Source of the DNA: Pocillopora damicornis
Taxonomy: Eukaryota
NCBI RefSeq assembly: GCF_003704095.1
Contig: NW_020843379.1
Span: forward strand, 372,001-436,000
Length of the DNA stretch: 64,000 nucleotides
Direction: 5' to 3'
Positions 5,176-64,000 of the stretch are shown piece after piece. The position numbers were made by a program, and so were the translations under genes. The notes beneath the pieces are model-generated. The model was given only the letters and a program-made list of their open reading frames with translations. It searched no databases and had not been told where the DNA came from. Every line of letters begins with the position of its first letter. The first letter of the stretch is position 1.

Positions 5176-5425
5176 CTAAATAAATAGCTCACACTTCGAC
5201 TGGTTATTGCGAGGAAAATTGAGTGCATGTTGCTTAACTTTTTCTGTGTTGAGATAATTCCATGCAAGGTATAATTTTCGTTGCTGACAGTTGTTGTTGT
5301 TGATGGCTTCNNNNNNNNNNTGTGCTCCAATGTCTGAGATGTTATTTATTGAGAGGTCTAACGTGCGTAGCTGACGGTTGTTGTTGTTGATGGCTTCAGC
5401 CAAGTGCTGTGCTCCAATGTCTGAG
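5176..5425 (-). CDS. C-terminal LRR fragment of an NLR (5' part lost in a gap)
   Basis: SDIGAQHLAEAINNNNRQLRTLDLSINNIS... RI-like LRRs ending at a stop at 5176; same repeat as in the neighbouring NLRs. Confidence 0.75.
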
Positions 5426-5526
5426 ANNNNNNNNNNNNNNNNNNNNNNNNNNNNNNNNNNNNNNNNNNNNNNNNNNNNNNNNNNNNNNNNNNNNNNNNNN
5501 NNNNNNNNNNNNNNNNNNNNNNNNNN

Positions 5527-8048
5527 TATACGATTGTCACAATCAACGAGCGGCAAAGAAAACCTACTGGATGTACGCTGCCCTTGGTGTGAATGGAATT
5601 CTTGTCATTACTATTCTGGTTGAAATCGTTTACCTTTTTTCACGGGCATNNNNNNNNNNNNNNNTCATGCAAGACTCAATGTTTCTTAAAACCCACTTCG
5701 GTCTCAACCAACACCTAGGTGGAAGGGACGAAACAATTCCACTCACTGAAACAGACACTGAAGAACTCCAAGAACGAAAGTTTCACGAATTCATCAAACG
5801 NNNNNNNNNNNNNNNNNNNNNNNNNNNNNNNNNNNNNNNNNNNNNNNNNNNNNNNNNNNNNNNNNNNNNNNNNNNNNNNNNNNNNNNNNNNNNNNNNNNN
5901 NNNNNNNNNNNNNNNNNNNNNNNNNNNNNNNNNNNNNNNNNNNNNNNNNNNNNNNNNNNNNNNNNNNNNNNNNNNNNNNNNNNNNNNNNNNNNNNNNNNN
6001 NNNNNNNNNNNNNNNNNNNNNNNNNNNNNNNNNNNNNNNNNNNNNNNNNNNNNNNNNNNNNNNNNNNNNNNNNNNNNNNNNNNNNNNNNNNNNNNNNNNN
6101 NNNNNNNNNNNNNNNNNNNNNNNNNNNNNNNNNNNNNNNNNNNNNNNNNNNNNNNNNNNNNNNNNNNNNNNNNNNNNNNNNNNNNNNNNNNNNNNNNNNN
6201 NNNNNNNNNNNNNNNNNNNNNNNNNNNNNNNNNNNNNNNNNNNNNNNNNNNNNNNNNNNNNNNNNNNNNNNNNNNNNNNNNNNNNNNNNNCTCAAGGAAC
6301 TGTTAATTCAGTCCGAGTATTTCCCAACAGATCAGCTAGATGACAAGGTCTGGAATCACCTGCTTGAGAACCCCAAAGGTGTACTCATACTTTTTGACGG
6401 ATTCGACGAATTTAAACATGACGCAAACNNNNNNNNNNNNNNNNNNNNNNNNNNNNNNNNNNNNNNNNNNNNNNNNNNNNNNNNNNNNNNNNNNNNNNNN
6501 NNNNNNNNNNNNNNNNNNNNNNNNNNNNNNNNNNNNNNNNNNNNNNNNNNNNNNNNNNNNNNNNNNNNNNNNNNNNNNNNNNNNNNNNNNNNNNNNNNNN
6601 NNNNNNNNNNNNNNNNNNNNNNNNNNNNNNNNNNNNNNNNNNNNNNNNNNNNNNNNNNNNNNNNNNNNNNNNNNNNNNNNNNNNNNNNNNNNNNNNNNNN
6701 NNNNNNNNNNNNNNNNNNNNNNNNNNNNNNNNNNNNNNNNNNNNNNNNNNNNNNNNNNNNNNNNNNNNNNNNNNNNNNNNNNNNNNNNNNNNNNNNNNNN
6801 NNNNNNNNNNNNNNNNNNNNNNNNNNNNNNAGCAACTTGAATTTGCTCTCGCTGTGTTATGTCCCGGTCAACAGCTTTATCATCGGCACAAGTCTGTTAG
6901 AAATCAAGAGATTACAAGAGTCCGAAAGTTCCGCTGACTTTACCCTCCCTTCCAAATTAACATTGATATACAATATTGCAGTGAAANNNNNNNNNNTTAA
7001 ACATACAATAGAATTGTGCAATATTTTGTTTCCTCTCGAACATAATTTGCCCAAAGATGTACTGGAGAAGTTCAAGATACTAGGAAAAGTAGCCTTTGAC
7101 GGAATCAAAGATGGAAAACTGATCCTTGGNNNNNNNNNNNNNNNNNNNNNNNNNNNNNNNNNNNNNNNNNNNNNNNNNNNNNNNNNNNNNNNNNNNNNNN
7201 NNNNNNNNNNNNNNNNNNNNNNNNNNNNNNNNNNNNNNNNNNNNNNNNNNNNNNNNNNNNNNNNNNNNNNNNNNNNNNNNNNNNNNNNNNNNNNNNNNNN
7301 NNNNNNNNNNNNNNNNNNNNNNNNNNNNNNNNNNNNNNNNNNNNNNNNNNNNNNNNNNNNNNNNNNNNNNNNNNNNNNNNNNNNNNNNNNNNNNNNNNNN
7401 NNNNNNNNNNNNNNNNNNNNNNNNNNNNNNNNNNNNNNNNNNNNNNNNNNNNNNNNNNNNNNNNNNNNNNNNNNNNNNNNNNNNNNNNNNNNNNNNNNNN
7501 NNNNNNNNNNNNNNTGAAGACGAACGAGAATTAGCAGTAACATTAATTAAATGTTTAAACGAAAATAGAAGAATGAAGTCAGAAGCACAGAGAAAACTTA
7601 AACAAATGAACTTTAATTGTGTAAATTTTTATCGTTGTCACATCACAGCTGTTGATTGCTCTTCGTTTGTAAATGTAATTAGTGTTCGACAAATTTCACA
7701 TTTAGATTTGAAATTCAATAACATTGATCCATTAGGTTGTCTTGAGATTTGTAAATTGTTAAAATGTAGTGAATCTCAACTGAGCTGGTTAAACCTCACA
7801 AGCAATCAATTGACAGATGAAGCAGCAAAGTATTTAGAGGACGCCATCAACAACAACAACTGTCAGCTACGCACGTTAAACCTCACAGACAATAACNNNN
7901 NNNNNNNNNNNNNNNNNNNNNNNNNNNNNNNNNNNNNNGCACTTGGCTGAAGCCATCAACAACAACAACTGTCAGCTACACACGTTAAACCTTACATACA
8001 ATGACATCTCAGACATTGGAGCACAGCACTTGGCTGAAGCCATCAACA
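5527..8048 (+). CDS. Connexin-like-4TM/NACHT/LRR NLR paralogue (gapped, partial)
   Basis: Sequenced islands give, in order: DCHNQRAAKKTYWMYAALGVNG (EL2/TM4), GVLILFDGFDE (Walker B), LLSLCYVPV and AFDGIK (helical and winged-helix region), then 29-aa LRRs. Colinear with the 10216-12875 copy. Confidence 0.8.
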
Positions 8049-8148
8049 NNNNNNNNNNNNNNNNNNNNNNNNNNNNNNNNNNNNNNNNNNNNNNNNNNNN
8101 NNNNNNNNNNNNNNNNNNNNNNNNNNNNNNNNNNNNNNNNNNNNNNNN

Positions 8149-9658
8149 CACTTTGACCGCAATCTTGTATATCGTGGTTAATTTGGAAGGCAGGGTAACA
8201 CTGCCGGAACTTTCGAACTGCATTATTTCTGACAGACTTGAGCACATGATGAAGCTGTNNNNNNNNNNNNNNNNNNNNNNNNNNNNNNNCATGTTGCTGC
8301 TGATGTGTCGCCATAGCGTTTCGCCTGCTTCCTTGTCATCTCCAGCGAATTTATCGATATACTCTTTAATTTGCTCGGTTGAGAAGCCAAGGATTTCAAN
8401 NNNNNNNNNTTTGAAGCGGCTTTTTATCTTCAATGCTTCTGGGATAAGTGGACGCCGCGGTTATGTTTTCGTTATGTTCGAATTCGTCGAATCCGTCAAA
8501 AAGCATGAGAACACCTTCAGGGTTCTTNNNNNNNNNNNNNNNNNNNNNNNNNNNNNNNNNNNNNNNNNNNNNNNNNNNNNNNNNNNNNNNNNNNNNNNNN
8601 NNNNNNNNNNNNNNNNNNNNNNNNNNNNNNNNNNNNNNNNNNNNNNNNNNNNNNNNNNNNNNNNNNNNNNNNNNNNNNNNNNNNNNNNNNNNNNNNNNNN
8701 NNNNNNNNNNNNNNNNNNNNNNNNNNNNNNNNNNNNNNNNNNNNNNNNNNNNNNNNNNNNNNNNNNNNNNNNNNNNNNNNNNNNNNNNNNNNNNNNNNNN
8801 NNNNNNNNNNNNNNNNNNNNNNNNNNNNNNNNNNNNNNNNNNNNNNNNNNNNNNNNNNNNNNNNNNNNNNNNNNNNNNNNNNNNNNNNNNNNNNNNNNNN
8901 NNNNNNNNNNNNNNNNNNNNNNNNNNNNNNNNNNNNNNNNNNNNNNNNNNNNNNNNNNNNNNNNNNNNNNNNNNNNNNNNNNNNNNNNNNNNNNNNNNNN
9001 NNNNNNNNNNNNNNNNNNNNNNNNNNNNNNNNNNNNNNNNNNNNNNNNNNNNNNNNNNNNNNNNNNNNNNNNNNNNNNNNNNNNNNNNNNNNNNNNNNNN
9101 NNTTCTCGGAGTTCTTCAGTGTCTCTTTCAGTGAGTGGCATAGTTTCGTTCGTGCCATCCAGGTGTTGGTTGAGACTTAGATGGGTTTTTAGAAACTTTG
9201 AGTCTTCCATGAAACTCCTCTCAATGCATGCCCGTGAAAAAAGGTAGACGGTTTCAACCAGAGTCCCAGCAACAATAATTCCATTCACCGCAAGGACAGC
9301 GTACATCCAGAAGGTTTTCTTTACAGCTCGTTGATTGTGACAGTCGAGTAAAGTAGAGTTTTGGGCGTTGTCAGATGAATTGCTTGGCTGAGTGGTTCCA
9401 TCGGTTAAATAACAGTTAAACTGAGNNNNNNNNNNNNNNNNNNNNNNNNNNNNNNNNNNNNNNNNNNNNNNNNNNNNNNNNNNNNNNNNNNNACAATTCT
9501 TATCGATAGTTGAGAGCAGTAAGCGATAAAAAGCTTGTTTCCAGTTGATGACGCAGTATCTTGGTCGAGCAGATGATCGACTTTGGGTCTTACTATTTGG
9601 GAGTAAATAGCACATACAAATGCGATAAGGAGTAAATTGAGGATTACGAAGCCATAGA
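8149..9658 (-). CDS. Connexin-like-4TM/NACHT NLR paralogue (gapped, partial)
   Basis: Islands translate to YGFVILNLLLIAFVCAIYSQ...GNKLFIAYCSQLSIRIV, FNCYLTDG...DCHNQRAVKKTFW, NPEGVLMLFDGFDE and EILGFSTEQIKEY. Frame changes occur only across N-gaps. Confidence 0.8.
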
Positions 9659-10215
9659 NNNNNNNNNNNNNNNNNNNNNNNNNNNNNNNNNNNNNNNNNN
9701 NNNNNNNNNNNNNNNNNNNNNNNNNNNNNNNNNNNNNNNNNNNNNNNNNNNNNNNNNNNNNNNNNNNNNNNNNNNNNNNNNNNNNNNNNNNNNNNNNNNN
9801 NNNNNNNNNNNNNNNNNNNNNNNNNNNNNNNNNNNNNNNNNNNNNNNNNNNNNNNNNNNNNNNNNNNNNNNNNNNNNNNNNNNNNNNNNNNNNNNNNNNN
9901 NNNNNNNNNNNNNNNNNNNNNNNNNNNNNNNNNNNNNNNNNNNNNNNNAGCTTGAATAAACAGCTAATGCGGCTTTGGTCTATTTGTAGCGCATGATAGT
10001 ACTTTTATTTGATTGGCTTTTTTGGAAACTTTTAACTGTCAAAACGACAATGGATTCTTTGTGCATGTTATTGTTCTACATAAGAAACACTTGTCAGAAG
10101 CTGAGACGGTTATAGNNNNNNNNNNNNNNNNNNNNNNNNNNNNNNNNNNNNNNNNNNNNNNNNNNNNNNNNNNNNNNNNNNNNNNNNNNNNNNNNNNNNN
10201 NNNNNNNNNNNNNNN

Positions 10216-12875
10216 GAGATGTTATTTCCTGTGAGGTCTAACGTGCGAAGCTGACAGTTGTTGTTGTTGATAGCTTCAGCTAAATACTTTACTGCTTCAT
10301 CTGTCAATTGATTTCCNNNNNNNNNNAACCAGCTCAGTTGAGATTCCCTATATTTTAACAATTTACAAATCTCATAGCAACCTAAGGAATCAATGTTATT
10401 AGCACTCAAATTTAAATGTGAAATTTGTGGAACATTAATTACATTTACTAACGAAGGGCAATCAACAGCTGTGAGGTGACAATCAATAAAATTTACAAAA
10501 TTAAAGTTCAATTGTTGAAGTTTTTCCTGTGCTTCTAACTTCATTCTACTATTTTCGTTTAAACATTTTATTAATGTCATTGCTAAATCTTTTTCGTCGC
10601 TAGTTGGCCAGCAGGTTACTTTCCTTTTTACTTCTTTATCTGTCCACTGTTCGGTGTAGCTTTCTTCTTTAGTTTTCACAGGAAGAAGGTTAGTAATAAT
10701 TTCGTTTGATAGATGAATTTTATCCTCCATTAATCCTGCTAGAAACTGAAAAACCAGCTGCCATTTGCCGTTCTTGATGTTCTCGGAAACAAAGCTTTTT
10801 AATTCTGTGTCACTCATGTTGTTTGCTAGGTGCCTCGCAGCGAAAAACTCTTGNNNNNNNNNNTGAATGAAACAGAATTGTGGTTCAGGATTAAGTGGGT
10901 CCGTTTTACGGTCGGGTAAGCGGTGGAAAAGAGCGCTGTCTTCCATTCCGCTTACTTCGCTTCCTCCAAGGATCAGCTCTCCGTTTTTGATTCCTTCAAA
11001 CGCTACTCTTCCTAGTTTTCTGAATATTTCCAGCACTTGGGTGGGCAAATTATGTCCGACTGGAAACGGATTATGGCACAATTCTCTTGTATGTTTAAAA
11101 TAAAACACCTGTACTGCAATCTTGTATATCGATGTTAATTTGGCAGGAAGGGTAACGTCATCGGAACTTTCGGACTCCATTATTTGTAACAGACTTGTGC
11201 AGATGATGAAGCTGTTGACCGGCACATAACATAGCGTGAGCAAATTAATGTTGCTGCTGATGTGTCGCCATAGTGTTTCGCCAACTGTCTTTTTATCTCC
11301 GGCCAATTTGTAGACATGTTCTTTAACTTGTTCCAATGAAAATCCTAGAATTTCGAACGTTTTGTCAAACTTGAGGTGTTTGATGCTCGACAAAGCCGAA
11401 GGTCTCGTGGTTGTCAAAATTGAGGCATCTTTTAGGAGTTTCCCGGTCACAAGCCACTGGTAAAGGATTTGGAGCGGCTTTTTCTCTTCAATGCACTTGG
11501 GATGAGCAGGTTCTCGGTCCATGTTTGCGTTAAGTTTAAATTCGTCGAATCCGTCAAAAAGTATGAGTACACCTTCAGAGTTCTCAATCAAGTGATTCCA
11601 GACCTCGTCATCTAGGTGATTTGTTGGGAAATGCTCGGACTGAATCAACAGTTCCCTGAGGCTAAGGTTGTTCTCCGATTTGAATCTTCTAAATTTCACG
11701 AAGAAAGCGGCATCAAAAGGGATTTTGGCTTCAGGTGACGCCCAGTCTCTGAGAAGTTTGGTACAACATAATGTCTTGCCGATTCCGGNNNNNNNNNNGA
11801 TTAACACTTTCTTATTTTCAACATTTAGGAGGTCTTCCAGGCTTTTCGGTTGTGAGTTTTCCCCGCGCGACATTGGATAAATCTTGAGTTGTTCCTCTCT
11901 GTTCTCAGTAAAGACATACGTAGCTCTGTTCGGAATCACAANNNNNNNNNNGTAAATTTGATCCAAAGTCAAATGTTTTACTATTGTGTTTTCGCCTGGA
12001 TTACCTGTAAAAGGTGATTGGAGTGCTAATAGTTCTTGGGTGTCTTGAAAAATTATTTTCTTTGTGCGTTTGATGAATTTTTTAAACTTTCGTTTTTGGT
12101 GTTGGTTGAGTCTTAGATGGGTTTTTAGAAACCTTGAGTCTTGCATGAAACCCCTTTCAATGCATGCCCGCGAAATAAGGTAGACGGTTTCAACCAGTAT
12201 GCCAGCGACATGAATTCCATTCATCACAAGGACAGCGTACATCCAGAAGGTTTTCTTTTCCGCTCGTTGATTGTGACAGTCGTGTAAAGTAGAGTTTTGA
12301 GCGTTGTCGGATAAATTCCTCGGCTGAGTGGTTCCATCGGTTAAATAACAGTTAAACTTCGAGTAAAACTTTAAAGGATAAAGCAACTGAGTTTGTAGGA
12401 TGATGAAAATTACTCCTAAAACAATTCTTAACAATAGTTGACAGCAGTAAGCGAAAAAGAGCCTGTTTCCAGTTGATGACGCAGTCTCCTGGTCAAGCAG
12501 CTGTCTCTCTTGATCATCGTTACGGATGCCTCGCGACAGTTGATCGACTTTGGCGCTCCCTATTTTAGAGTAAATAGCACATACAAATGCAATAAGGACT
12601 AGATTGAGGATTACGAAGCCAAAGATAGGAAAACCGTATTTGTTGTACTGATTCATATATTTCTCGTAACATTTTCCACGGACGATGTCGACGTTTTCAC
12701 TCTTCGCTCCGCCACAGCGAAAATCAAACCTGGACTCGTTGTTTTCCATGTCGACGAATATGGCGAGGAAGATGACACTGATCAGAATCCAAAAAACCAC
12801 TGCCACATAGTGAACTTTGTTGAAAGCTTTTGGATCCAAATATACTAAAATCTTTTCCATTGATGCGGTTGACAT
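10216..12875 (-). CDS. NLR with N-terminal connexin-like four-TM domain, NACHT NTPase and RI-like LRRs (3' end runs into a gap)
   Basis: Intronless ORF of more than 880 aa. Four hydrophobic segments in aa ~22-235; Walker A VLI....GIGKT; Walker B VLILFDGFDE; LTTTRP; LCYVPV; F.....QEFFAA; then LRRs. Confidence 0.92.
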
Positions 12876-12912: not shown

Positions 12913-13075
12913 GCTTAATTAACCAGCTAATGCCACCTTGGTCTAATTATAGAGCGTGATAGTACTTTTATTTGATTGGATTTGAAACTTGCAACTGTCA
13001 AAACAACGATTGATTATTTATGCATTTTATCGTTTGACGTAAGAAACAGTTGTCAGAAACTGAGACGGATATAGA
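12913..13075 (-). promoter_or_regulatory. Conserved upstream non-coding block of the NLR duplication unit (second copy at ~9950-10115)
   Basis: CAGCTAATGC...GATAGTACTTTTATTTGATTGG...AACTGTCAAAAC...TAAGAAACA.TTGTCAGAA.CTGAGACGG.TATAG lies 5' of two minus-strand NLR copies. Confidence 0.6.
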
Positions 13076-22500: not shown

Positions 22501-25140
22501 TCTTATCATGTTATAATCAATTAAGCACTGTATCAGGCTAGCACTACTTGCATAGTCCATTAATCAAAGCTGTCATTCAGCTATGTTCTGAGACTTTGAC
22601 AATTATTGACAGACATTTTTACTTAAAGATCTAGTTATCAAAATGTAAATGTGAGCTAAGGGAAAGTGAAATAGTTAAAGTAAACAGGGAGTTCAAGCAA
22701 ACTGAGCTTGAGTTAGTTGATAGTAAATAACAAAAAAATGGGGTCAAATCCAGGGAAATTGCATTTTGTTCCAGTGTGCAAGGAGTTTCAGTCAACCAGG
22801 TTCAAGTCTGTGGGGTCTTACTGTATCATAAGAGGGTGGTATGGCTCTGACACTAATAAGCATTTTTAAATGTCAAGCGTTTTTAACATGAGCCTCTAGT
22901 TTGCAAGATTGTGCGAACACTTTCCCCATGTTCAACATTAAATTAACTTTTACATTCTATTCTATTTTAATGAACTACTCCAAAATTACAAACCAAAACA
23001 TTTCTCCTCACCTAAATTCTTTTTGTCATTCATGTTGCCAGAGGGGAAGAACTTCTCACCAAATCTCCCTTGCTGCATGGTGACAGGTCCTTGTGGTTTT
23101 GCAACAGATTCAGCCTGTGATGTATAGATTCCCTGGCCTCTGCCAGAAAATGTAGAACCATTTTCTCCATAAGTAAACAACTCACTTCCATTTTCACTAA
23201 ACCCATTGTTTGTGGATGCAGCACCCTGATTTGTATAGAATCCAAACCTTTGCGATGCAGCTTCTGACATGTAAGGCTCACCATAAGACAGATCATAACT
23301 GATTGAATCTTGAGCATTTGAGAATGGCTTTCCACCATATGCACTGTACAGTCCTTTGTTACCATACAAATTTGAAACATTCTTCGGTGCATTCTGTGCA
23401 TAACTGTAACCACCAGGACTCAAATTTGATTCACTCATGACTTTCTTGTCCACTTTAAGCTTAGGAGGTCCATTAGCTAATCTACTGTCCAGAGAAACAC
23501 TATCTCCCGAAGGCCCAGGGAGTGCCCTGAAATGACTGTAAGATGGAGGATGTCTGTAGTTTGATTCCTCAAGATTATAGAATGCACTGTAATCACCAGC
23601 CATTTTTCCTGCCCTGTGGGAGTAGAAACTAGCTCCATCAAACTTTGACATGGTGTCCACAGGCTCTCTATAAGGAGGAGGATGTCGATACTTATCCAAA
23701 GGGCTCATAGAGTGTTCCATTTGCTCAGGATATGGAGGTGGGTGTCGGTATCCTGATTTTGTAGCCTCTGGGGGTGTTTTGTCAGTAGTACAAGTCTGAC
23801 ATGACTCTGCAGTCATCTGTAGTCTTTGTACTACTTCTAAAATATCCCCCATATTATTGTTTCTACTGTTTTCAAAACTGGATTGTGACAATCTTTCTCC
23901 AGCATCTGGTAAATCAGGTTGCAGGTGAGAACTGTGTGTTCTATTTGGATTGCTGTCATGAGCAACCATTACAATACCAGCATTATCAGTGCTAGCACAG
24001 TCCATGATGAAGGATTCTGAAATATCTGTTTCTGAGAGTACTGACTGGAAGCAAGGTGTTGATGCACATCTCTTCAAGCGTTCTTGACAAATAAAATAGA
24101 AAGATGGGGCAAATGTGAATATATGAGAAGTTGGATACATAAAAAATACTTGTGCATGTAATTGAAAAATGCCACATGGTCTTGTCTACATGGGAAAAGT
24201 TTAAAGAATGAAAAATATTAACTCAATCCGAAAAAATACAAGTGGATTTCTACATAAAGAATTCTTCCAAATTATGATCTTGGGAAATTTTTCGCCAGAC
24301 ACCACAGCATGAGAAAAACGTCTGAAAAACTGCTTCAAGGCCACACATTGATACTATATTGATTAAATTAAGAGGCAATATCATAATATTTCTGGTCATT
24401 TTTCCGACCTAGAAATTACACAATGACTATAGTGACTGTGTGAAAATATTGATTCATCAAACCAATATATATAGCAGTGACTCTGAAACGTGCACTAAAA
24501 ATTCAACCTTTCTTTCGGTACATAACTGTCTATCTTAGTTTTTTGTTTCTATATCGCACCTCTTGCAATGCTGAAAGAAAAGCTATTCAAAGAATTCAAT
24601 AAGGCATGCCGTGCGATAATCAATTCCTAAACAAAAATGTTACTAGGAAAGAGAGCGTTTGGTTTTACCACATTTTAAGAGAAAACTAATTTCTTCAATT
24701 GAAAATATTTGACTTCTATAAAATAACACTGCAGCAAGATCGCTATCTTCTGATATAAACAATAGAATGAAGAGATATTTTCCTGAAACAACAATTTCGA
24801 GTATGTGATACACTCGAATCAGAGTTGAATGGTCCAAATTGCCTCGGGCAGTTTTCTTTATACATACGATCGAAATAAACACATGGTTGGAATAAACAGT
24901 TGTCGAACCGAAAATCAGCGACGTATCTTGCAAATGCTACACAACCTAATTTAGCGATCTTTCCCAATAAGAAGGATAAAACTTCTTGATGATACATTCC
25001 CATCGGAAAAGCGGATTTGACAACGTACCCTCAAGAATTTCAGTTGTGTTTTCACGCTTCTTGTATTTGCCTTGTAGCCGTTCTTTGCCTCCTTTTCCTT
25101 TCTTCTTTACGAAGTACTTTCTTAAGAAGGGCATCTTCAT
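19554..25140 (-). CDS. SAV1: Salvador homolog (Hippo pathway scaffold), 8 coding exons: 25140/25134-25029, 24082-23012, 21813-21720, 21501-21455, 21096-21039, 20601-20441, 20202-20141, 19772-19554
   Basis: N-terminal QGKYKKRE; WW1 [30 protein letters not shown]; WW2 [44 protein letters not shown]; SARAH domain WDLFRYAELDCWQTMLKRLYKKE. Splice phases are consistent. Confidence 0.93.
20634..20844. mobile_element. piggyBac-type MITE family A (~205 bp); further copies at ~14085-14171, 15500-15679, 21920-22109, 29601-29808, 31506-31718, 32115-32290, 40256-40662, 50137-50342
   Basis: (T)TAA-CCCTTT...AAAGGG-TTAA ends, with the shared core GAGAATAAAGGAAATGATCACCAA...AAACAAATTCTCCTTGTCAGCACC. Confidence 0.8.
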
Positions 25141-46947: not shown

Positions 46948-47373
46948 TTCTTCAAAAGATGAATAAATGATTCAAGAAAGCATTTGCTAGAAATTTTTAG
47001 CCCCAAAAAGCTTAAAAACAGGGACTAGATAGGTCTGTTATCATAAAGGTTGCTTTCACACCAATCCCAAGCCATGATGTGAAGATGTTTACTTACTATG
47101 AGTTATGGTTTTGCTGCAGTGCTCCTTGGAAGTGTCAGACATGGATGATGATTTCTTGTGTTCTTTAAAAGATGAATAAATGATTCAAGAAAGCATTTGC
47201 TAGAAATTTTTAGCCCCAAAAAGCTTAAAAACAGGGACTAGATAGGTCTGTTATCATAAAGGTTGCTTTCACACCAATCCCAAGCCATGATGTGAAGATG
47301 TTTACTTACTATGAGTTATGGTTTTGCTGCAGTGCTTCTTGGAAATGTCGGACATGGATGATGATTTCATGTG
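46948..47373. repeat. Tandem 213-bp duplication spanning the COPS2 splice acceptor and start codon
   Basis: Near-identical units offset by 213 bp (acceptor AG at 47118-47119 and 47331-47332). Confidence 0.9.
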
Positions 47374-48676
47374 TGATGATGATGAAGATTATGACCTGGA
47401 GTACTCTGAAGACAGTGCCTCCGAGCCTGATGTGGATTTGGAAAACCAGTACTACAATTCAAAAGCCTTGAAAGAAGATGATCCTAATGCCTCATTGCAA
47501 AGCTTTCAGAAGGTTTTGGATCTTGAAACAGAAAAAGGTGAATGGGGATTCAAAGCACTGAAACAAATGATCAAGATCAACTTCAAGCTGGGCCATTATG
47601 ATGAGATGATGACCCGCTATCAGCAGTTGCTCACATACATAAAGAGTGCTGTCACAAGGAACCACTCTGAAAAGTCTATTAATTCCATCCTGGATTACAT
47701 TTCGACTTCAAAGCAAATGGAGTTGCTACAGAATTTCTACGAGACCACACTGGAAGCCTTGAAAGATGCAAAGAATGACAGACTGTGGTTTAAGACAAAC
47801 ACAAAGCTAGGAAAGTTGTACTTTGACAGAGGGGAATTCACCAAGCTGGCAAAAATCCTGAAACAACTGCATCAGTCTTGTCAGACAGATGAAGGAGAAG
47901 ATGATTTGAAGAAGGGAACTCAATTGCTAGAAATTTATGCTCTGGAGATCCAGATGTACACAGCTCAAAAAAATAACAAGAAGCTTAAAGCTTTGTATGA
48001 ACAGTCCCTTCACATCAAATCTGCTATTCCACATCCACTTATTATGGGGGTGATCAGGGAGTGTGGCGGGAAGATGCACTTACGGGAGGGAGACTATGGA
48101 GCAGCTCACACTGATTTCTTTGAGGCTTTTAAGAACTATGATGAGTCTGGAAGTGGAAGGCGCACAACTTGCCTGAAATACCTTGTCCTGGCCAACATGC
48201 TTATGAAATCTGGTATCAACCCTTTTGACTCTCAGGAAGCAAAACCTTACAAAAATGACCCAGAGATTCTAGCCATGACAAATCTCGTCAGTGCTTACCA
48301 GAATGATGATATCAATGAGTTTGAGAAAATTCTCAAAACCAACCGCAAGAACATAATGGATGATCCCTTTATCAGGGAACACATCGAAGATCTCTTAAGA
48401 AACATCAGGACACAAGTGCTTATCAAGCTGATTAAGCCATACACACGGATCCACATTCCATTTATATCCAAAGAGTTGAACATTGATACAGAAGAAGTGG
48501 AAAGCCTTCTGGTACAATGTATACTTGACAATACCATTCATGGCCGCATTGATCAGGTAAATCAACTTCTTGAACTGAACAGAACAACACAGAGTGTTGA
48601 TAGGTTCCAGGGACTGGATAGGTGGACCACACAGTTAAATTCGCTTCACACTACAGTCGTAAACAAGATTGCCTAA
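47345..48676 (+). CDS. COPS2: COP9 signalosome subunit 2, core CDS in a single exon
   Basis: [65 protein letters not shown] and a PCI C-terminus; very close to animal CSN2. Confidence 0.97.
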
Positions 48677-52693: not shown

Positions 52694-53638
52694 TCATTCT
52701 AAACCAGTATCACTTGTTTGCTCGCTGCGATATCGATATTGCCTGATCGTTTTCTTCACAGCATGCCTGACTTCTCTGATGCGCCAATAATAAAGCACTG
52801 GGTTCAGAGATGAATTGAAGAAGATTAAGGTGGCCGTGAATCCCTCGGCGACAGGCCAGACATTACCAGTAACAGCCTTCAACCCTGACACTATACTGTA
52901 CGGCAGATAACAGATCAGTAGTGTTAAATGAACCCAAAGCGCGCTTGATACGGTTTTCTTGTACCGCGCCATGTTCATTGGAGGGTTTTTATTTTCAAGT
53001 CCCTGGTTTAAAACGTTCTGGATTTTTGCCTGCTGCGCACAGAGTGTGTGGCAAATTTTTGCATAGCAAAACGTGGAAATAATAACACAAGTAAATATAC
53101 CTATGAGACAAACAAGATAGAAGAGATATCTATTCCTCAAGAATCGCGCAAAGCCATTTGCGATATTTACCGCCCAGAAAAATATCACAAATCTACGGAC
53201 CCGCGGAGCAGTCACAGTTTGTCGGTATCGCATTCCGAGCGACAAGGCGAGTAATCTGTCGACACTGATGAAGGTTAGAATAAAGAGAGACACTCCGCTT
53301 AGAACTGCACTTGTGATGTAGGTCACTTCCACGGTGAATTGGTAGATAGGCAAACGGTCAGTGAAAATAGAGATCGAATGCAGCGCTGCCAGTGGCTGAG
53401 AGATGAGACCGACGCACAAATCTGTGATCGCCAAATTGAGTATCAATAGGCGCGAAGGCGGATGAAAGCAGGATTCTCGTCGTAGCGCAATAAATATCAA
53501 CGTATTTCCAAGAGTGGCAGAGATGGAAAGGATAATATTTAAAACAGACAAAGCGACAAAAGAGTTGAAGACATGCGGAGAACTTTTGACCAGAAGGAAC
53601 AAGGGCGGTCGAGTTGCCACACTGTTGTTGTTCGCCAT
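52694..53638 (-). CDS. Class A (rhodopsin-like) GPCR, intronless; adenosine/melanocortin-receptor-like orphan
   Basis: Seven hydrophobic segments; GN in TM1, NLAITD, ISVDRL, CYLPY, NSSLNPVLYYWR. Confidence 0.92.
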   Translation of the reverse strand: MANNNSVATRPPLFLLVKSSPHVFNSFVALSVLNIILSISATLGNTLIFIALRRESCFHPPSRLLILNLAITDLCVGLISQPLAALHSISIFTDRLPIYQFTVEVTYITSAVLSGVSLFILTFISVDRLLALSLGMRYRQTVTAPRVRRFVIFFWAVNIANGFARFLRNRYLFYLVCLIGIFTCVIISTFCYAKICHTLCAQQAKIQNVLNQGLENKNPPMNMARYKKTVSSALWVHLTLLICYLPYSIVSGLKAVTGNVWPVAEGFTATLIFFNSSLNPVLYYWRIREVRHAVKKTIRQYRYRSEQTSDTGLE

Positions 53639-56558
53639 ATCGAAGACGAATTGTCACTAGCTTAATTTGAGGGTCTTTTTCATTTCATATGGAAAATAAA
53701 AGGAAGTAAGATCTCGAAAAATAGGTGGGATGGTTTATTTTAAGAGCGAAAGCTGTCAAGAATTTGTCAAATTGACTTTGAAACATGACGTTTGGTTGAC
53801 CATAACGATATCTTTTATCTCACTTCTTAATGAAATTAGGGTGATAACCTTCATTTTTAATGAAAAACAAAGCATAAATCACTCGCCATTTAATTGGAAT
53901 AGACCACTCTGAATCTTTGAATCATTCTTCTTTTTCTTTCTTTTTAGGTGTGGCGGAAAGCAACGTTTTTTAGCCAAAATTAGTGATTTCAAAAAGTTGA
54001 CATACTTGCTTGAGTTTTGCGTCTTCTTTTGTAAACAAAGAGCAAATTATAATAATTCTTAACTGCTTTTGCTTTTAGACGCAGTTAAAAGAGTAATTTT
54101 TGAAACTGATGTCTGTATGCCAATTGTTAGCAGCAACAGAATTTTTTTTGTCTGAATGTGCCTTTGTAACTGGCGGAAAATGTCCTTCGTTTTGGCAAAA
54201 TACCAGAGTCGCAGCTTCATTTTCGAAGTAATCTTTAAAATTCTTCCTTGATTTTTATTTCACTTTCAGAGACTTGCATTTATTCATGGAATGATTACAT
54301 TTAGATAGAGCATAGGGACAATGCTTTGACCAAAAGGTAAACATCTTCACCTACTGTTATTTAACAAGAGTGGGCGTGTCCCTATTTCATCAATGTCTTC
54401 CTTTCGGTAAGTCAAATGATCGAACTGGAGTATGACTTCTGTGGTAACAACAAACCTTGATCTTCTGACTTGTGCCTGTCGTCATCTGTTGCCTAAAATG
54501 TGGCGAGCTCCCATTTCGGTGCTTTTATTCACATTTAAATTTCCATTGATTAATCGAGGAGTTAACGGAAAAAAAGTTTTACTTGTTGACCGTTTTCCAG
54601 AGACGTAATGGCGATCTTACTCCTCAGATTCATTTATATAAGTTATTCAATCGATACTTATAATCTTTTTTCAACAATTTGGCTTTTTCTCTTTCCAACG
54701 TATGAATCGATGGAATCGTAATTTGAATAACATTCAGGTGCCAGGATTTAATTCCCACGACTAGATATTTTGACAAAAATCCATAATCTGATGACTTGGT
54801 TTGGATTATCTGCAATTCACAAAGAAAACCTGATCACACGAGAGGATCAGATTTTCTCTGAAAGCACAAAAAAAAAGAAGAAGAAAGCAAACAGTGACAA
54901 ATGGCGACATGAATAAACTTGCGCGCGTCTGGCCTTACAGTGCAACTTTGAGCAAATAAAGAGAATGAATTTTAATTTAATCTTCTTTACCTCATCATAA
55001 AAGCTATTTACTGATGGGCGGAACTAACAACGTTTTTTTTTTTTAAATTAACTTATTTGCTGACAAATATTTATGGCCGCAAAATTGAAAGGGCACAAAA
55101 AAGGGAGCCAGCAACCGACATTTAATTTTAGCCACGACATTATTGCAGAATGGCTTCGCGTCAACGAAAGGTTTAATTTTTAAAAAACGCAGATGTTTGG
55201 AGTGCGAGCTAATGAGGCCAATGCTGTTATTTTTAAACTGTTGAAACCGTTTTTTTTTTAATCCTTTTGGATATATTGCTAGTGTATTAGCAATTTCTGC
55301 ATAGTTGAGTGAACCGCAAGTTTAAGGGCTTTTTTCGAAATGGATGCCGGTATTTGAGTCTGTGAAAGGCAATATTAGAATGTTTAGTGAATGAGAAAAA
55401 CTTAATAGCGTTGAAGAGTTTATGCAATGATTTTAAGGAATATTAACTCTTTGCTAACATTTGTCAATTGGCATGTTCGAAATTGTATTGGAACTATGAT
55501 AAATTGATAATTTTGATCGTAATCAAATTTTCGCGTTAAATGCAATTCGATGTCGTGAAAATTTCCTGATAGCATCTAAGGCGAATTAAAGAACCCTTTT
55601 TCCGTCCATAAGATTTCCTTCAAGTCATTTCTTTTTAGACAAACACCACTGCAACCTCTTTTTGATCAGCCTTTCCCATTCTTCGGTGCCCAGTCCTGCG
55701 ATCTCACTGCTGTTGAAATTTCCAAACTTTTGCCAAACGCCAGCTAACTTTGAAATCCAAAATGAAAATCTTAAGGCAATACAAATGGCAAACTTCTCTT
55801 TTTATTCAAACCTCCATCGCTTACAAATCTGCTTGTGCTAAAATCATGGCTGTCACTGCCTTTTAAATAATGCTGCCAAAATATTATTCAAACGATACTT
55901 TTTTTTCACAGTTAAACATAGAACTCAGAAGAGTTGATGAGATGAAGCCAACAAATGGAGAGTTGGTAAGACATTTCCAAATGCTATTCATTACTTAGCG
56001 GAAATTAAAATTTTGGGGAAAGACCACTACGTAGAAAAAGCTGGGAGGCATTTTAAGTTTTTTTTCCTTTTTACCTCAACAGCCTGACTCTGAAAACCCA
56101 TTTTAATACCCCTTGTTTTCCATGTGCTCCAAACCTTTCTTCGACGCGTTAAAATTTGGATAATTTTCAATTCGAACTTAGTTCGATCTCCGAGTCGATA
56201 ACCTCGCGCTTTTTGTGAAAAAGAAAAATAAATTGACTTTATCCTAGATGTCAAAAAATGCCCCCATATGATGAAAAAAAAAGCATATGGACTCAAGTGC
56301 CATGAAAGATTTTGACCAATTACAGTGCACGTCTGTGTCATGCTGTGAAGTGACGTGATGTGGTAACAAAGTTCAATTTGGTTGCCTCGCAAACGTGCGT
56401 TTCTCCGCAGCATGCTGAAAGTGAAATGTTTATCAGAGGTGGGCTATCGGGAAATTTTCAAAAACTGTTCAAATATGTGGGTCGACTAATTTTACTATGA
56501 AAACAACAACTACAAAAATCGTCTGCGAATCAGGGCGAACCTGCTTCTAATTTTCAAG

Positions 56559-57473
56559 ATGGTAAATGAAACGGTGGCTTTGTTTATTCGCTCCAAAACT
56601 ACGCCATACGTTTTCAATTCCTTCATCGCACTGGCTTGTCTAAATATGGTATTGTTCTTTACGGCGAGTTTTGGAAACATCTTGATTGTACTCTCTTTAC
56701 GAAAGGAATCTCTACTTCATCCACCTTCGAGACTTCTTTTGCGTAATCTAGCCTTGACGGATCTGTTCGTTGGTCTCTTCACTCATCCATTAGCTACCCT
56801 GCACTCCATTTCCATTCTTGTTGAAAATGTGCCAATTTTTCAGTTCACTGTGCGGTCGAGTTATGTTAGCAGTGCCATCTTAAGCGGAATGTCTCTCTTT
56901 GTACTGACCTTGATCAGTGTGGACAGATTACTCGCTCTCTCTCTCGGGATGAAATACAGGCAAGAGGTGACTGCGAGACGTGTTCGTGGTTTTGTGATAT
57001 TTTTCTGGGTGTTAAATACTGCGAATGGTCTTGCACTGTTGTCTCGGGAGCGATTTGTCTTTTACATATTCAGTGCATCGAGCATCTTTCTTTGCATGAT
57101 AATTTCGACTTTTTGCTACGCGAAAATTTACCGCATCCTTCGTTTGCAAGAAATGAAAGTTCGCACCACTTGTTCCCAAAAACAAAAAAACAAAAACTCT
57201 CTGCTTAGCGTCAAGCGCTACAAGAATACTGTGTCAAACGCGCTTTGGGTTCACTTGACATTGCTGGCTTGTTATTTCCCGTACAGTATAGTGTCGGGAT
57301 TAAAAGCGGTGACTAAAGAAACTTGGGCAGTCGCTGAAGGCTTCACTGGGACTCTGATATTCTTCAATTCATCACTGAATCCTCTTCTTTATTATTGGCG
57401 CATTAAGGAAGTGAGACAGGCTTTATTGGAAATGATCAGGCAATACCGAAGTTTACTTTTGAGGGAAACTTGA
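56559..57473 (+). CDS. Class A GPCR, intronless; paralogue of 52694-53638
   Basis: GN, NLALTD, ISVDRL, CYFPY, NSSLNPLLYYWR; long stretches identical to the neighbour. Confidence 0.92.
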   Translation: MVNETVALFIRSKTTPYVFNSFIALACLNMVLFFTASFGNILIVLSLRKESLLHPPSRLLLRNLALTDLFVGLFTHPLATLHSISILVENVPIFQFTVRSSYVSSAILSGMSLFVLTLISVDRLLALSLGMKYRQEVTARRVRGFVIFFWVLNTANGLALLSRERFVFYIFSASSIFLCMIISTFCYAKIYRILRLQEMKVRTTCSQKQKNKNSLLSVKRYKNTVSNALWVHLTLLACYFPYSIVSGLKAVTKETWAVAEGFTGTLIFFNSSLNPLLYYWRIKEVRQALLEMIRQYRSLLLRET

Positions 57474-62300: not shown

Positions 62301-63115
62301 GTGTGGATAGAGAACTGGGGAAATTGCATTCAATTTTACAATTTAAATTTTTAATTTCTGGTTGTGTGCACAGAGTAACTCTTGAAACTAGTGGTGTAGT
62401 ATGTGGACAGAAAAACCCTTGACGATTAAGAGATCTTAGCTAGCGAAGAGAATGAGAAAAAGCCTTACGACAGTATGCAAATTGTCGAAGCATAATGTGG
62501 AGGTAATCGAACATTCGATAGATGCAGGAGCCCTTCACTTGATGGGCTCCTGATAGATGACAAAGCGCAAATGGCTTGTCACCTCGGCATGTATTTTGTA
62601 ATGTTCATCTAAATGAGCAGCGTTTTTGAACACATTGTTCCAAACATAAAAATTCTCTAAGTGTTTGTTGGTTTTTCTTTCTCTTAATTTATGTAGATGC
62701 CCTTTTTCTGAAGGGCGAAAGTCTGCACAGTTATAAGTCAGAGACTCTTTGTGAGACCATCCCTGATTACCTGGAACTGAAGGAGTGGCTATCCCTGTTA
62801 CCATGGTCACCTCCACTTTGGTCCCATACAGACACAGGGCCGCACAGAATTCTCCGCTCAACCCCTTAAAACTAGGACCCTTTGGACGACCAATGTCTGT
62901 CTGAAGTTCCCCGTCAAGGTATATGTTCAGAAACTGATTGTTTAGGTCCATCAAAACACCAAGGCTGCTGTCCTTCAGGTCTTTCGCTTTTCGTTTAATT
63001 TGAATCTTGTGCTTGGCGTTCTCAGTTCGAGCTGTTGTGCCTTCGAAAATTTGTAGGGCATAAGATCCGGATGTGTTCCCCAGAATGGAATCTTGGGTAA
63101 TCCTTTTGGCAACTC
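59347..63115 (-). CDS. 3' part of a B30.2/SPRY-FN3-B30.2/SPRY protein (TRIM/FSD-like); exons 63115-62771, 62133-61828, 61249-61061, 60483-60274, 59483-59347; 5' part lies beyond the window
   Basis: SPRY motifs LGVLMDLNNQFLNIYLDG, GEFCAALCLY, FQLDPSSANHDLELTN, CHYWRVHV and IGVLLNLDDHFL; FN3 LGW....DYYVLE...Y.V...V.G.N..GEG.PSE. All introns are phase 1 GT-AG. Confidence 0.85.
61595..61790. repeat. (GACT/GACC/CCAA)n tetranucleotide microsatellite
   Basis: Runs of ACTG/ACCG directly visible. Confidence 0.85.
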
Positions 63116-64000
63116 CTGCGAATGAAAAAAAAAATTTTGAAGTTATGACAGAGAAAATTGTATCTGGACTTTCGTTCGATAACCTTTAGGACTAGAGACA
63201 CCGGTCCAGACAACCCCTGTAGTCCTTGTAATATGCCTTCACCAATGAGAAGTAAGATATTGATATATCAACCAATCAGGTTAGGTAATCGTTTCCCGTT
63301 GTGTCAACTACCTATTACCAAAGCCCGAGTGATTTAAGTTTTGCGTTTGATTGGTTCGGAAGATAACATGATTTTCCAGACATATCAGAGAGCGAAGTGA
63401 AGTAGAAGCAATCAAATTTCGGATACTTTTGACGCTTAATAGCAATTTGTCCAAGATCTGTAATTGCATCTGCTGATTGAATCTTAATTCTGACTTAATG
63501 ATAACCATGATAAATTTCTCAAATATTAATGGTGTATTCGCTGTACAGTCGTAATCGGACAGTTAGCTGTAGTGGGACACCTGTAATCAGACAGTTGAAG
63601 CAACCAATCATACTAAGTCCAATCAGCCAATTCACCAATCACAGAAATGATCAAAATAACCATAGCAACAACCACTTACAATAGAACCAACCAAACAAAA
63701 ACTGGGGAATTTCCAAAATGGAGGAATTTTTTTATTAAAGACATTGTCTCCACAGGAGATAGTTTTTTCTAGGTGTATTTGTTTTTGCCCGGAAATTGAA
63801 ATGGTTATGATTAATTGGTAACAGGACTTCTTGTCGTCCAATTCTGTCTGTAATCATACTCATGATTAACAAATCGGACTCCCGCTTCGCAGTCGTCCGA
63901 TTTTGTTAATCACGTATATGTTTACAGACAGAATTTGACTCCACTTGGTCCTATTACCATTATGTAGTACTAACTAACTCTGAGGTTTTCACATAATGTT

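What the first reader, a model, noticed from the sequence alone, without database searches (positions are those of the whole stretch)
12276..12745. N-glycosylation sequons in the extracellular loops point to a hemichannel, not a gap junction
Seen: EL2 is lengthened between C176 and C200 and carries NLS (N187) and NST (N194). The paralogue at 9340-9420 has NSS and NST at the same places. EL1 has NES (N46). Established: pannexins carry extracellular N-glycans that hinder docking, whereas connexin loops are unglycosylated and have three disulfides. Inference: the NLR channel works in a single membrane, plasma or endomembrane/symbiosome.
Basis: partly seen in the sequence, partly recalled or inferred. 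Interest (0 to 1): 0.7.

Follow-up and report, generated by a model that had tools for sequence, protein, structure and literature searches.

The report
Sugar-coated coral connexin immune channel
This coral gene joins a connexin-like membrane channel to an immune-sensor tail, and one outer loop keeps sugar-attachment signals across nearly its whole family, so it is likely a sugar-coated single-membrane channel like its tested relatives, although the sugars are probably not what stops it from linking cells.

Summary
Observation confirmed. The ORF (12875 to about 10216, minus strand) is a Pocillopora connexin-like (CxL)-NACHT-LRR protein with N46, N187 and N194 sequons, and both loops are extracellular by homology to connexins. 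The hemichannel conclusion is already published: a June 2026 preprint found plasma-membrane channels and no dye coupling for three anthozoan CxLs; its main text never mentions glycosylation. New here: EL2 sequons show a family-wide signature of selection. Of 150 representatives clustered at 50% identity, 102 cover both loops; 97 of these have an EL2 sequon (57 expected by shuffling), N-x-T is enriched 3.15-fold, and positions float in the domain's least conserved segment. EL1, the cytoplasmic loop, the tail and reversed motifs show no enrichment. N46 is unconserved and too close to TM1. The proposed cause is weakened: this genome's apparent orthologue of the tested, non-junctional pmCxL30 has no extracellular sequon, so glycans seem unnecessary for non-docking. 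The remodelled loop (23 versus about 10-13 residues between the end cysteines, middle disulfide absent) is the likelier block. Nothing supports a symbiosome location. Occupancy is untested.

The parts
10216..12875 (-). CxL-NACHT-LRR coding sequence, one open frame from M1 at 12875; the 3' end runs into an unreadable N stretch (10116-10215), so the LRR end is not seen (closest homologue P0003 is 1110 aa)
12156..12875 (-). Connexin-like four-helix channel domain (residues 1-240)
   Evidence: PF00029 E 4.5e-6, below the curated cut-off; profile hit to Cx31.3 E 2.4e-12; model pLDDT 90.1; Z 15.1, rmsd 3.2, 172 aligned to Cx50
12627..12749 (-). Extracellular loop 1 (residues 43-83) with C54 and C69
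   Evidence: C54 in 101 and C69 in 102 of 102 representatives
12732..12740 (-). N46-E-S sequon; poorly conserved and too close to TM1, so likely unused
   Evidence: 14 of 120 close homologues; model helix runs to residue 45; 12-residue rule
12276..12350 (-). EL2 C176-C200 segment: 23-residue, low-confidence loop between two strands, replacing the short connexin docking hairpin
12309..12317 (-). N187-L-S sequon, the main site in this clade
   Evidence: 113 of 120 close homologues
12288..12296 (-). N194-S-T sequon, second site
   Evidence: 55 of 120 close homologues
12462..12464 (-). R138, aligned to the CO2-gating K140 of pmCxL30
11304..11792 (-). NACHT NTPase domain
   Evidence: PF05729 E 2e-25
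10548..10853 (-). HD2 helical domain (weak match)
   Evidence: PF17776 E 1.1e-4, below cut-off
10216..10420 (-). Start of the leucine-rich repeats
   Evidence: sequence; PF13516 weak; LRR families on close homologues
8149..9658 (-). Tandem paralogue, partly unreadable; EL2 N-S-S at 9381-9373 and N-S-T at 9360-9352; NACHT pieces at 8149-8527
5527..8048 (+). Third, convergent CxL-NACHT-LRR copy; its extracellular loops are mostly unreadable

Best explanation
The gene encodes a coral connexin-like channel domain fused to NACHT and LRR domains, whose lengthened second outer loop is likely N-glycosylated at N187 and perhaps N194 and which likely works as an undocked plasma-membrane hemichannel. Shown here: the fold, the sequons, and their family-wide, EL2-specific, position-free enrichment. 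Shown by others for relatives only: plasma-membrane location, ATP and glutamate release on depolarisation, no dye coupling. Inferred: the loop remodelling itself (an insertion of 10-13 residues, no middle disulfide, docking positions not conserved) prevents docking. The glycans would mainly serve folding, surface delivery or shielding of a flexible exposed loop, and would add a second, redundant steric barrier. Gating by the NACHT-LRR sensor is inferred from the architecture and is untested.
For: Fold and topology. EL2 sequons in 97 of 102 representatives against 57.3 expected; 187 sites against 79.5; N-x-T 3.15-fold; between the two cysteines alone 94 of 102 against 47.4. Controls are flat: EL1 0.92, cytoplasmic loop 1.04, tail 0.94, reversed motif 0.93, N at i+1 1.03, D-x-S/T 0.84, Q-x-S/T 1.06. 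The signal survives pruning to under 35% identity (mean 19.6 of 20.9 against 11.4). Loop identity is 14% against 40% in TM2 and TM3, and sites lie 4-27 residues before the last Cys. 120 of 120 close homologues keep at least one EL2 site, including all 7 that lost N187. Hemichannel behaviour of relatives. Glycan not needed: L009 matches pmCxL30 in its first nine residues, K140, R232 and mass (29.8 kDa) and has no loop sequon; the same holds for the 15 listed members of its 109-member cluster. Positions matching Cx26 N54 and D179 are Asn in 5 and Asp in 14 of 102. Loss of those residues is the explanation given for non-junctional Cx31.3.
Against: No glycan was observed; occupancy is inferred from statistics. 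I did not see the actual pmCxL30 sequence (its table is an image and the supplements are closed), so the orthology rests on four matching features. L009 is on a long branch with a shorter loop (17 residues) and may have its own block, which would leave glycans as the block in typical members. Only three anthozoan proteins were tested, in HeLa cells with a C-terminal tag. The 102 rows are the best 150 of 319 hits and are mostly unnamed. The query itself keeps an Asp at the D179-like position. The junction-forming protostome CxLs were not retrieved.
Confidence: 0.6

Rival explanations
1. Pannexin-style block: the EL2 glycans are what prevents docking in typical members, and removing them would allow junctions.
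For: The selected sites sit in the loop that replaces the connexin docking hairpin. Panx1 N255A docks in cryo-EM and glycosidase-treated Panx1 couples oocytes weakly (PMC8042604). The three junction-forming connexins whose alignments were printed (Cx26, Cx32, Cx46) show no loop sequon.
Against: The sequon-free pmCxL30 type is still non-junctional. Seven junction-forming innexins carry loop sequons. A Panx1 glycosylation mutant gave no junctional conductance in oocytes. Docking residues and the middle cysteine pair are also missing.
Confidence: 0.2
2. The channel works in an endomembrane such as the symbiosome or phagosome, with the glycans facing the lumen.
For: Sequons fit a lumenal face equally well (established topology). 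Expression in coral immune cell types is cited in the preprint.
Against: pmCxL30 localised to the plasma membrane, and relatives released ATP to extracellular sensors. The family, sequons included, occurs in Dendronephthya gigantea (P0282), recalled as lacking algal symbionts. No targeting evidence was found.
Confidence: 0.07
3. The protein does form junctions in native coral tissue, glycans or not, and the HeLa result reflects the expression system.
For: Panx1 cell-cell channels were reported despite glycosylation (PMC9171361 abstract). Two protostome CxLs couple cells. Reports on anthozoan junctions conflict.
Against: 0 of 3 anthozoan CxLs coupled in the assay in which 2 of 2 tested protostome ones did. 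The loop is too long and variable for a fixed docking interface.
Confidence: 0.08
4. The sequons are incidental products of an N/S/T-rich flexible loop and are not used.
For: The loop is 10% N, 13% S and 14% T, so about half of the sequences would have a site by chance.
Against: The observed count is 2.6 times the composition-matched shuffles, with flat control motifs, and stays after pruning.
Confidence: 0.05

Closest known systems
Anthozoan connexin-like NLRs (CxL-NLR; pmCxL30, pmCxL62, edCxL50, plCxL60) of preprint 10.64898/2026.06.13.731801
   Same: N-terminal CxL domain, NACHT and LRR in one open frame, two cysteines per outer loop, long outer loops, many copies per genome; the apparent pmCxL30 orthologue falls in the same well-supported clade as this gene (98).
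   Different: This copy has not been tested. The preprint's main text has 0 occurrences of 'glycosyl' or 'sequon'. This copy has Arg where pmCxL30 has the CO2-gating Lys140.
Vertebrate non-junctional connexins (Cx31.3/GJC3; epsilon-clade Cx23/GJE1)
   Same: Same fold; Cx31.3 is the best sequence match; hemichannel only; the epsilon clade also has two cysteines per loop.
   Different: Short EL2 (10-13 residues between the end cysteines against 23 here), described as not glycosylated, and no NACHT-LRR.
Pannexins (Panx1) and sequon-bearing innexins
   Same: Single-membrane large-pore channels with loop N-glycans and two cysteines per loop; structurally similar (Panx1 Z 12.8, rmsd 4.4, 217 aligned).
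   Different: No pannexin or innexin among 35 profile hits. Pannexin sites are fixed in position, whereas here they float. The resemblance would be convergent.
LRRC8/VRAC channels
   Same: Large-pore four-helix channel with a cytosolic LRR tail (Z 13.0, rmsd 4.5, 215 aligned).
   Different: Pannexin-like transmembrane region and no NACHT (recalled); no sequence match.

Membership tests
Anthozoan CxL-NLR | N-terminal four-helix domain homologous to connexins | tested here: met
   34 of 35 profile hits in PDB are connexins, best E 2.4e-12; the top seven structural matches are connexins; Atlas first hits 0.93, PF00029
Anthozoan CxL-NLR | Central NACHT and C-terminal LRRs in the same frame | tested here: met
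   PF05729 E 2e-25; LRR start seen, end lost in an N run
Anthozoan CxL-NLR | Two cysteines in each extracellular loop | tested here: met
   C54, C69, C176, C200; 101, 102, 101 and 102 of 102 representatives
Anthozoan CxL-NLR | Depolarisation-gated ATP/glutamate release without dye coupling | not testable with these tools
   Shown for relatives only
Canonical junction-forming connexin | C-x6-C-x3-C and C-x4/5-C-x5-C loop signatures (three disulfides) | tested here: not met
   C-x14-C and C-x23-C here; motifs; extra Cys between the anchors in 3 and 5 of 102
Canonical junction-forming connexin | Conserved docking residues (Cx26 N54 and D179 equivalents) | tested here: not met
   Query has Gly and Asp; family has Asn in 5 and Asp in 14 of 102; the positions are offsets from aligned cysteines
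Pannexin/innexin | Sequence homology to innexins or pannexins | tested here: inconclusive
   Connexins rank first; pannexin folds score within about 2-3 Z units of the best match
N-glycoprotein (EL2) | Extracellular N-x-S/T at least 12 residues after and 14 before a membrane helix | tested here: met
   N187 about 22 after TM3 and 23 before TM4; N194 about 16 before TM4; N46 fails (helix ends are estimates)
N-glycoprotein (EL2) | Glycan actually attached | not testable with these tools
   Needs PNGase F or glycoproteomics

The most novel reading that the evidence does not exclude
Anthozoan CxL-NLRs are a whole branch of glycoprotein connexins that reached the pannexin design independently. The ancestral connexin was a glycan-capped immune hemichannel, and gap junctions arose when bilaterian lineages shortened EL2, lost the glycan and gained the third disulfide. 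Deglycosylating or trimming the coral loop would then restore docking, and junction-forming annelid and brachiopod CxLs would lack EL2 sequons.
Probability: 0.2. Interest if true: 0.75.

Novelty: new member of a known kind. Interest (0 to 1): 0.45.

Why it matters
Connexins are described as non-glycosylated, and the anthozoan branch was characterised only in June 2026, with non-docking put down to 'larger and more elaborate' loops. A loop-specific, position-free selection for N-x-S/T in 95% of the distant members examined says these are probably glycoprotein connexins. It gives a cheap test (N-to-Q, PNGase F, loop swap) of why they do not dock and whether the first connexins were hemichannels. 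The natural sequon-free member separates loop shape from glycan as the cause.

Tried and rejected
Junction-forming Owenia and Lingula CxLs were not retrieved: no listed hit or 53 carried such a name, most rows are unnamed, only 150 of 319 hits were listed, and 1 of 10 looked-up representatives carried a name. The named P. meandrina pmCxL30 record was not found (one search gave one unnamed 99% match; 0 of 40 members read were named). The maximum-likelihood tree did not finish, so FastTree was used. N46 was rejected as a meaningful site. A frameshift in the paralogue (the two readable pieces are 8 bases out of register across the N run 9426-9492) cannot be told from a wrong gap length. RNA contigs of 4 of 4 laid runs cover the gene in pieces but cannot show level or strand. 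No complex prediction was run, as oligomer models exist in the preprint. Earlier scan notes gave nothing relevant. 48 of 150 representatives were dropped because they did not cover both loops.

Full report
What is there. The finding lies in one open frame on the minus strand, from M1 at 12875 to an unreadable stretch at 10116-10215. It encodes four hydrophobic helices, a NACHT domain (E 2e-25), a weak HD2 match and the start of leucine-rich repeats. The closest named homologues are Pocillopora proteins at 92-95% identity. A tandem copy (8149-9658, minus) and a convergent copy (5527-8048, plus) lie beside it, both partly unreadable. The genome gave 24 matches, 11 of which I could align over the whole domain. 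Contigs from 4 of 4 RNA runs laid cover the gene in pieces, which shows presence in RNA libraries and nothing on level.

Observation. A profile of 43 family members matches connexins in 34 of 35 PDB hits, best human Cx31.3 at E 2.4e-12. It aligns C54/C69 with the outer EL1 cysteines and C200 with the last EL2 cysteine; C176 aligns with the first EL2 cysteine in the Cx31.3 and Cx46 alignments but not in the Cx32 one. A model with mean pLDDT 90.1 has strands at 173-179 and 195-202 around a low-confidence loop at 181-194. Its seven best structural matches are connexins (best Z 15.1, rmsd 3.2, 172 aligned), with LRRC8 and pannexin 1 close behind at Z 13.0 and 12.8. Both loops are therefore extracellular or lumenal by homology. 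Connexin EL2 signatures span 10-13 residues between the end cysteines (passages of PMC6858305). Here the span is 23, the family median is 25, and 100 of 102 are longer than 13.

Is it more than chance? Among the 120 listed close homologues (of 233 hits), all 120 have an EL2 sequon: N187 in 113, N194 in 55, N46 in only 14. The 7 that lost N187 all keep another EL2 site, though these rows are related. A profile search of 50%-identity representatives gave 319 hits, 150 listed, of which 102 cover both loops (median pairwise identity 28%). EL2 carries a sequon in 97 of 102 against 57.3 in composition-preserving shuffles (maximum 72 of 1000), with 187 sites against 79.5. N-x-T is enriched 3.15-fold and N-x-S 1.44-fold. 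Between the two cysteines alone it is 94 of 102 against 47.4. EL1 (0.92), the cytoplasmic loop (1.04) and the cytosolic tail (0.94, 72 rows) are flat, as are the reversed, shifted, D and Q control motifs in EL2 (0.84-1.06). One control outside EL2 was raised: the reversed motif between the EL1 cysteines, 18 against 7.1, probably a conserved column. After pruning to under 35% identity a mean of 19.6 of 20.9 rows keep a site against 11.4 expected. The loop is the least conserved part of the domain (14% identity) and the sites fall anywhere from 4 to 27 residues before the last cysteine. The 7 rows without an EL2 site fall at six scattered places among rows that have one (FastTree, midpoint root), which fits repeated loss. 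This pattern is what selection for a glycan, rather than for a fixed residue, would leave; that step is inference. N46 is within about 5 residues of TM1, short of the 12-residue minimum (passages of PMC4783361), and is likely unused. N187 and N194 pass.

What is already known. The bioRxiv preprint 10.64898/2026.06.13.731801 (whole main text read; figures, Table 1 and supplements not visible) describes this family. It reports plasma-membrane location of pmCxL30 in HeLa cells, release of ATP and glutamate on depolarisation and CO2, no plaques or dye transfer for pmCxL30, edCxL50 and plCxL60, and coupling for annelid ofCxL40 and brachiopod laCxL27. It puts non-docking down to larger loops. 'Glycosyl' and 'sequon' occur 0 times in its main text; its supplements could bear on this. 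Searches listed no paper whose title or abstract start concerns glycosylation of anthozoan connexins; the library lacks most subscription journals. So 'hemichannel, not gap junction' is known for the family, and the glycan signature appears to be an addition.

Do the glycans cause non-docking? The own-genome locus L009 is a stand-alone 257-residue CxL that starts with the same nine residues as pmCxL30 and has K140, R232 and a mass of 29.8 kDa. I take it as the orthologue without having seen the construct. It has no sequon in either loop, nor do the 15 listed members of its 109-member cluster. It sits in the same clade as the query, on a long branch. The nearest tested relative thus fails to couple without glycan sites. 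In addition, seven junction-forming innexins carry loop sequons (passages of PMC8769644, section 6 of PMC9171361). For Panx1, N255A docks in cryo-EM, but a glycosylation mutant gave no junctional current and the glycan is needed for trafficking (passages of PMC8042604). The family also lacks the middle cysteine pair and does not conserve the positions matching Cx26 N54 and D179, whose loss is the explanation offered for Cx31.3 (passages of PMC7455182). Against my reading: L009 has a shorter loop (17 residues) and may be a special case, and the selected sites lie just where connexins dock.

How it likely works. An oligomeric connexin-fold pore in the plasma membrane, with NACHT-LRR tails in the cytosol and a flexible glycan-bearing EL2 loop per subunit outside. 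It would release ATP or glutamate when opened. Opening by depolarisation is shown for relatives; control by the sensor tail is inferred from architecture only. Glycans would aid folding, delivery or shielding and add a redundant barrier to docking. Nothing here points to the symbiosome. My odds: EL2 glycosylated 0.85; hemichannel 0.85; glycan not the necessary block 0.75; the whole reading 0.6.

Verdict. A real feature of a recently described family: a new member of a known kind, with one property not found in the text I could read and a cheap test. Interest 0.45; 0.75 if glycan loss proves to be the switch from hemichannel to junction.

Noticed in passing
window 12462-12464 (R138) against the paralogue near 9530: This copy has Arg at the position of pmCxL30 K140, and K140R abolished CO2 gating in the preprint. 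The tandem neighbour and 94 of 120 close homologues have Lys. Neighbouring paralogues may differ naturally in CO2 sensitivity.
   Followed up: partly
L009:1423-2193 (-), G000:C2122: Stand-alone 257-residue CxL, apparent orthologue of pmCxL30, with no extracellular sequon. 7 of the 15 listed cluster members are 8 residues shorter in the cytoplasmic loop.
   Followed up: partly
L007:1498-2193 (-): Paralogue in a 782-residue open frame whose EL2 segment is cut to 14 residues with no EL2 sequon; a natural short-loop candidate for a docking test.
   Followed up: partly
PDB 6l3t alignment: Human Cx31.3, a hemichannel-only connexin, has an N-L-S sequon right after its last EL2 cysteine; its structure paper has 0 occurrences of 'glycosyl'. 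It is close to TM4, so possibly unused.
   Followed up: partly
window 5250-10215: Cluster of three CxL-NLR copies (two tandem, one convergent) plus an LRR fragment on the minus strand at about 5280-5426, broken by many N runs; order and intactness are uncertain. The 5' non-coding region was duplicated too (9949-10115 resembles 12920-13075).
   Followed up: partly
L010/L018 and L017/L020 (G000:C897): CxL copies with stops and frameshifts, consistent with birth-and-death turnover of the family.
   Followed up: no
window 43165-44550 (-), 47315-48676 (+), 52694-53653 (-), 56490-57473 (+): Long single frames: an F-box/LRR protein, a PCI-domain protein (recalled as COP9 signalosome subunit 2-like), and two similar rhodopsin-type GPCRs, of which only the first was scanned.
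   Followed up: no
window 22986-24185 (-) and 62535-63185 (-): Open frames of 399 and 216 residues with no Pfam match at E 0.1; the first has repeated proline-rich motifs.
   Followed up: no
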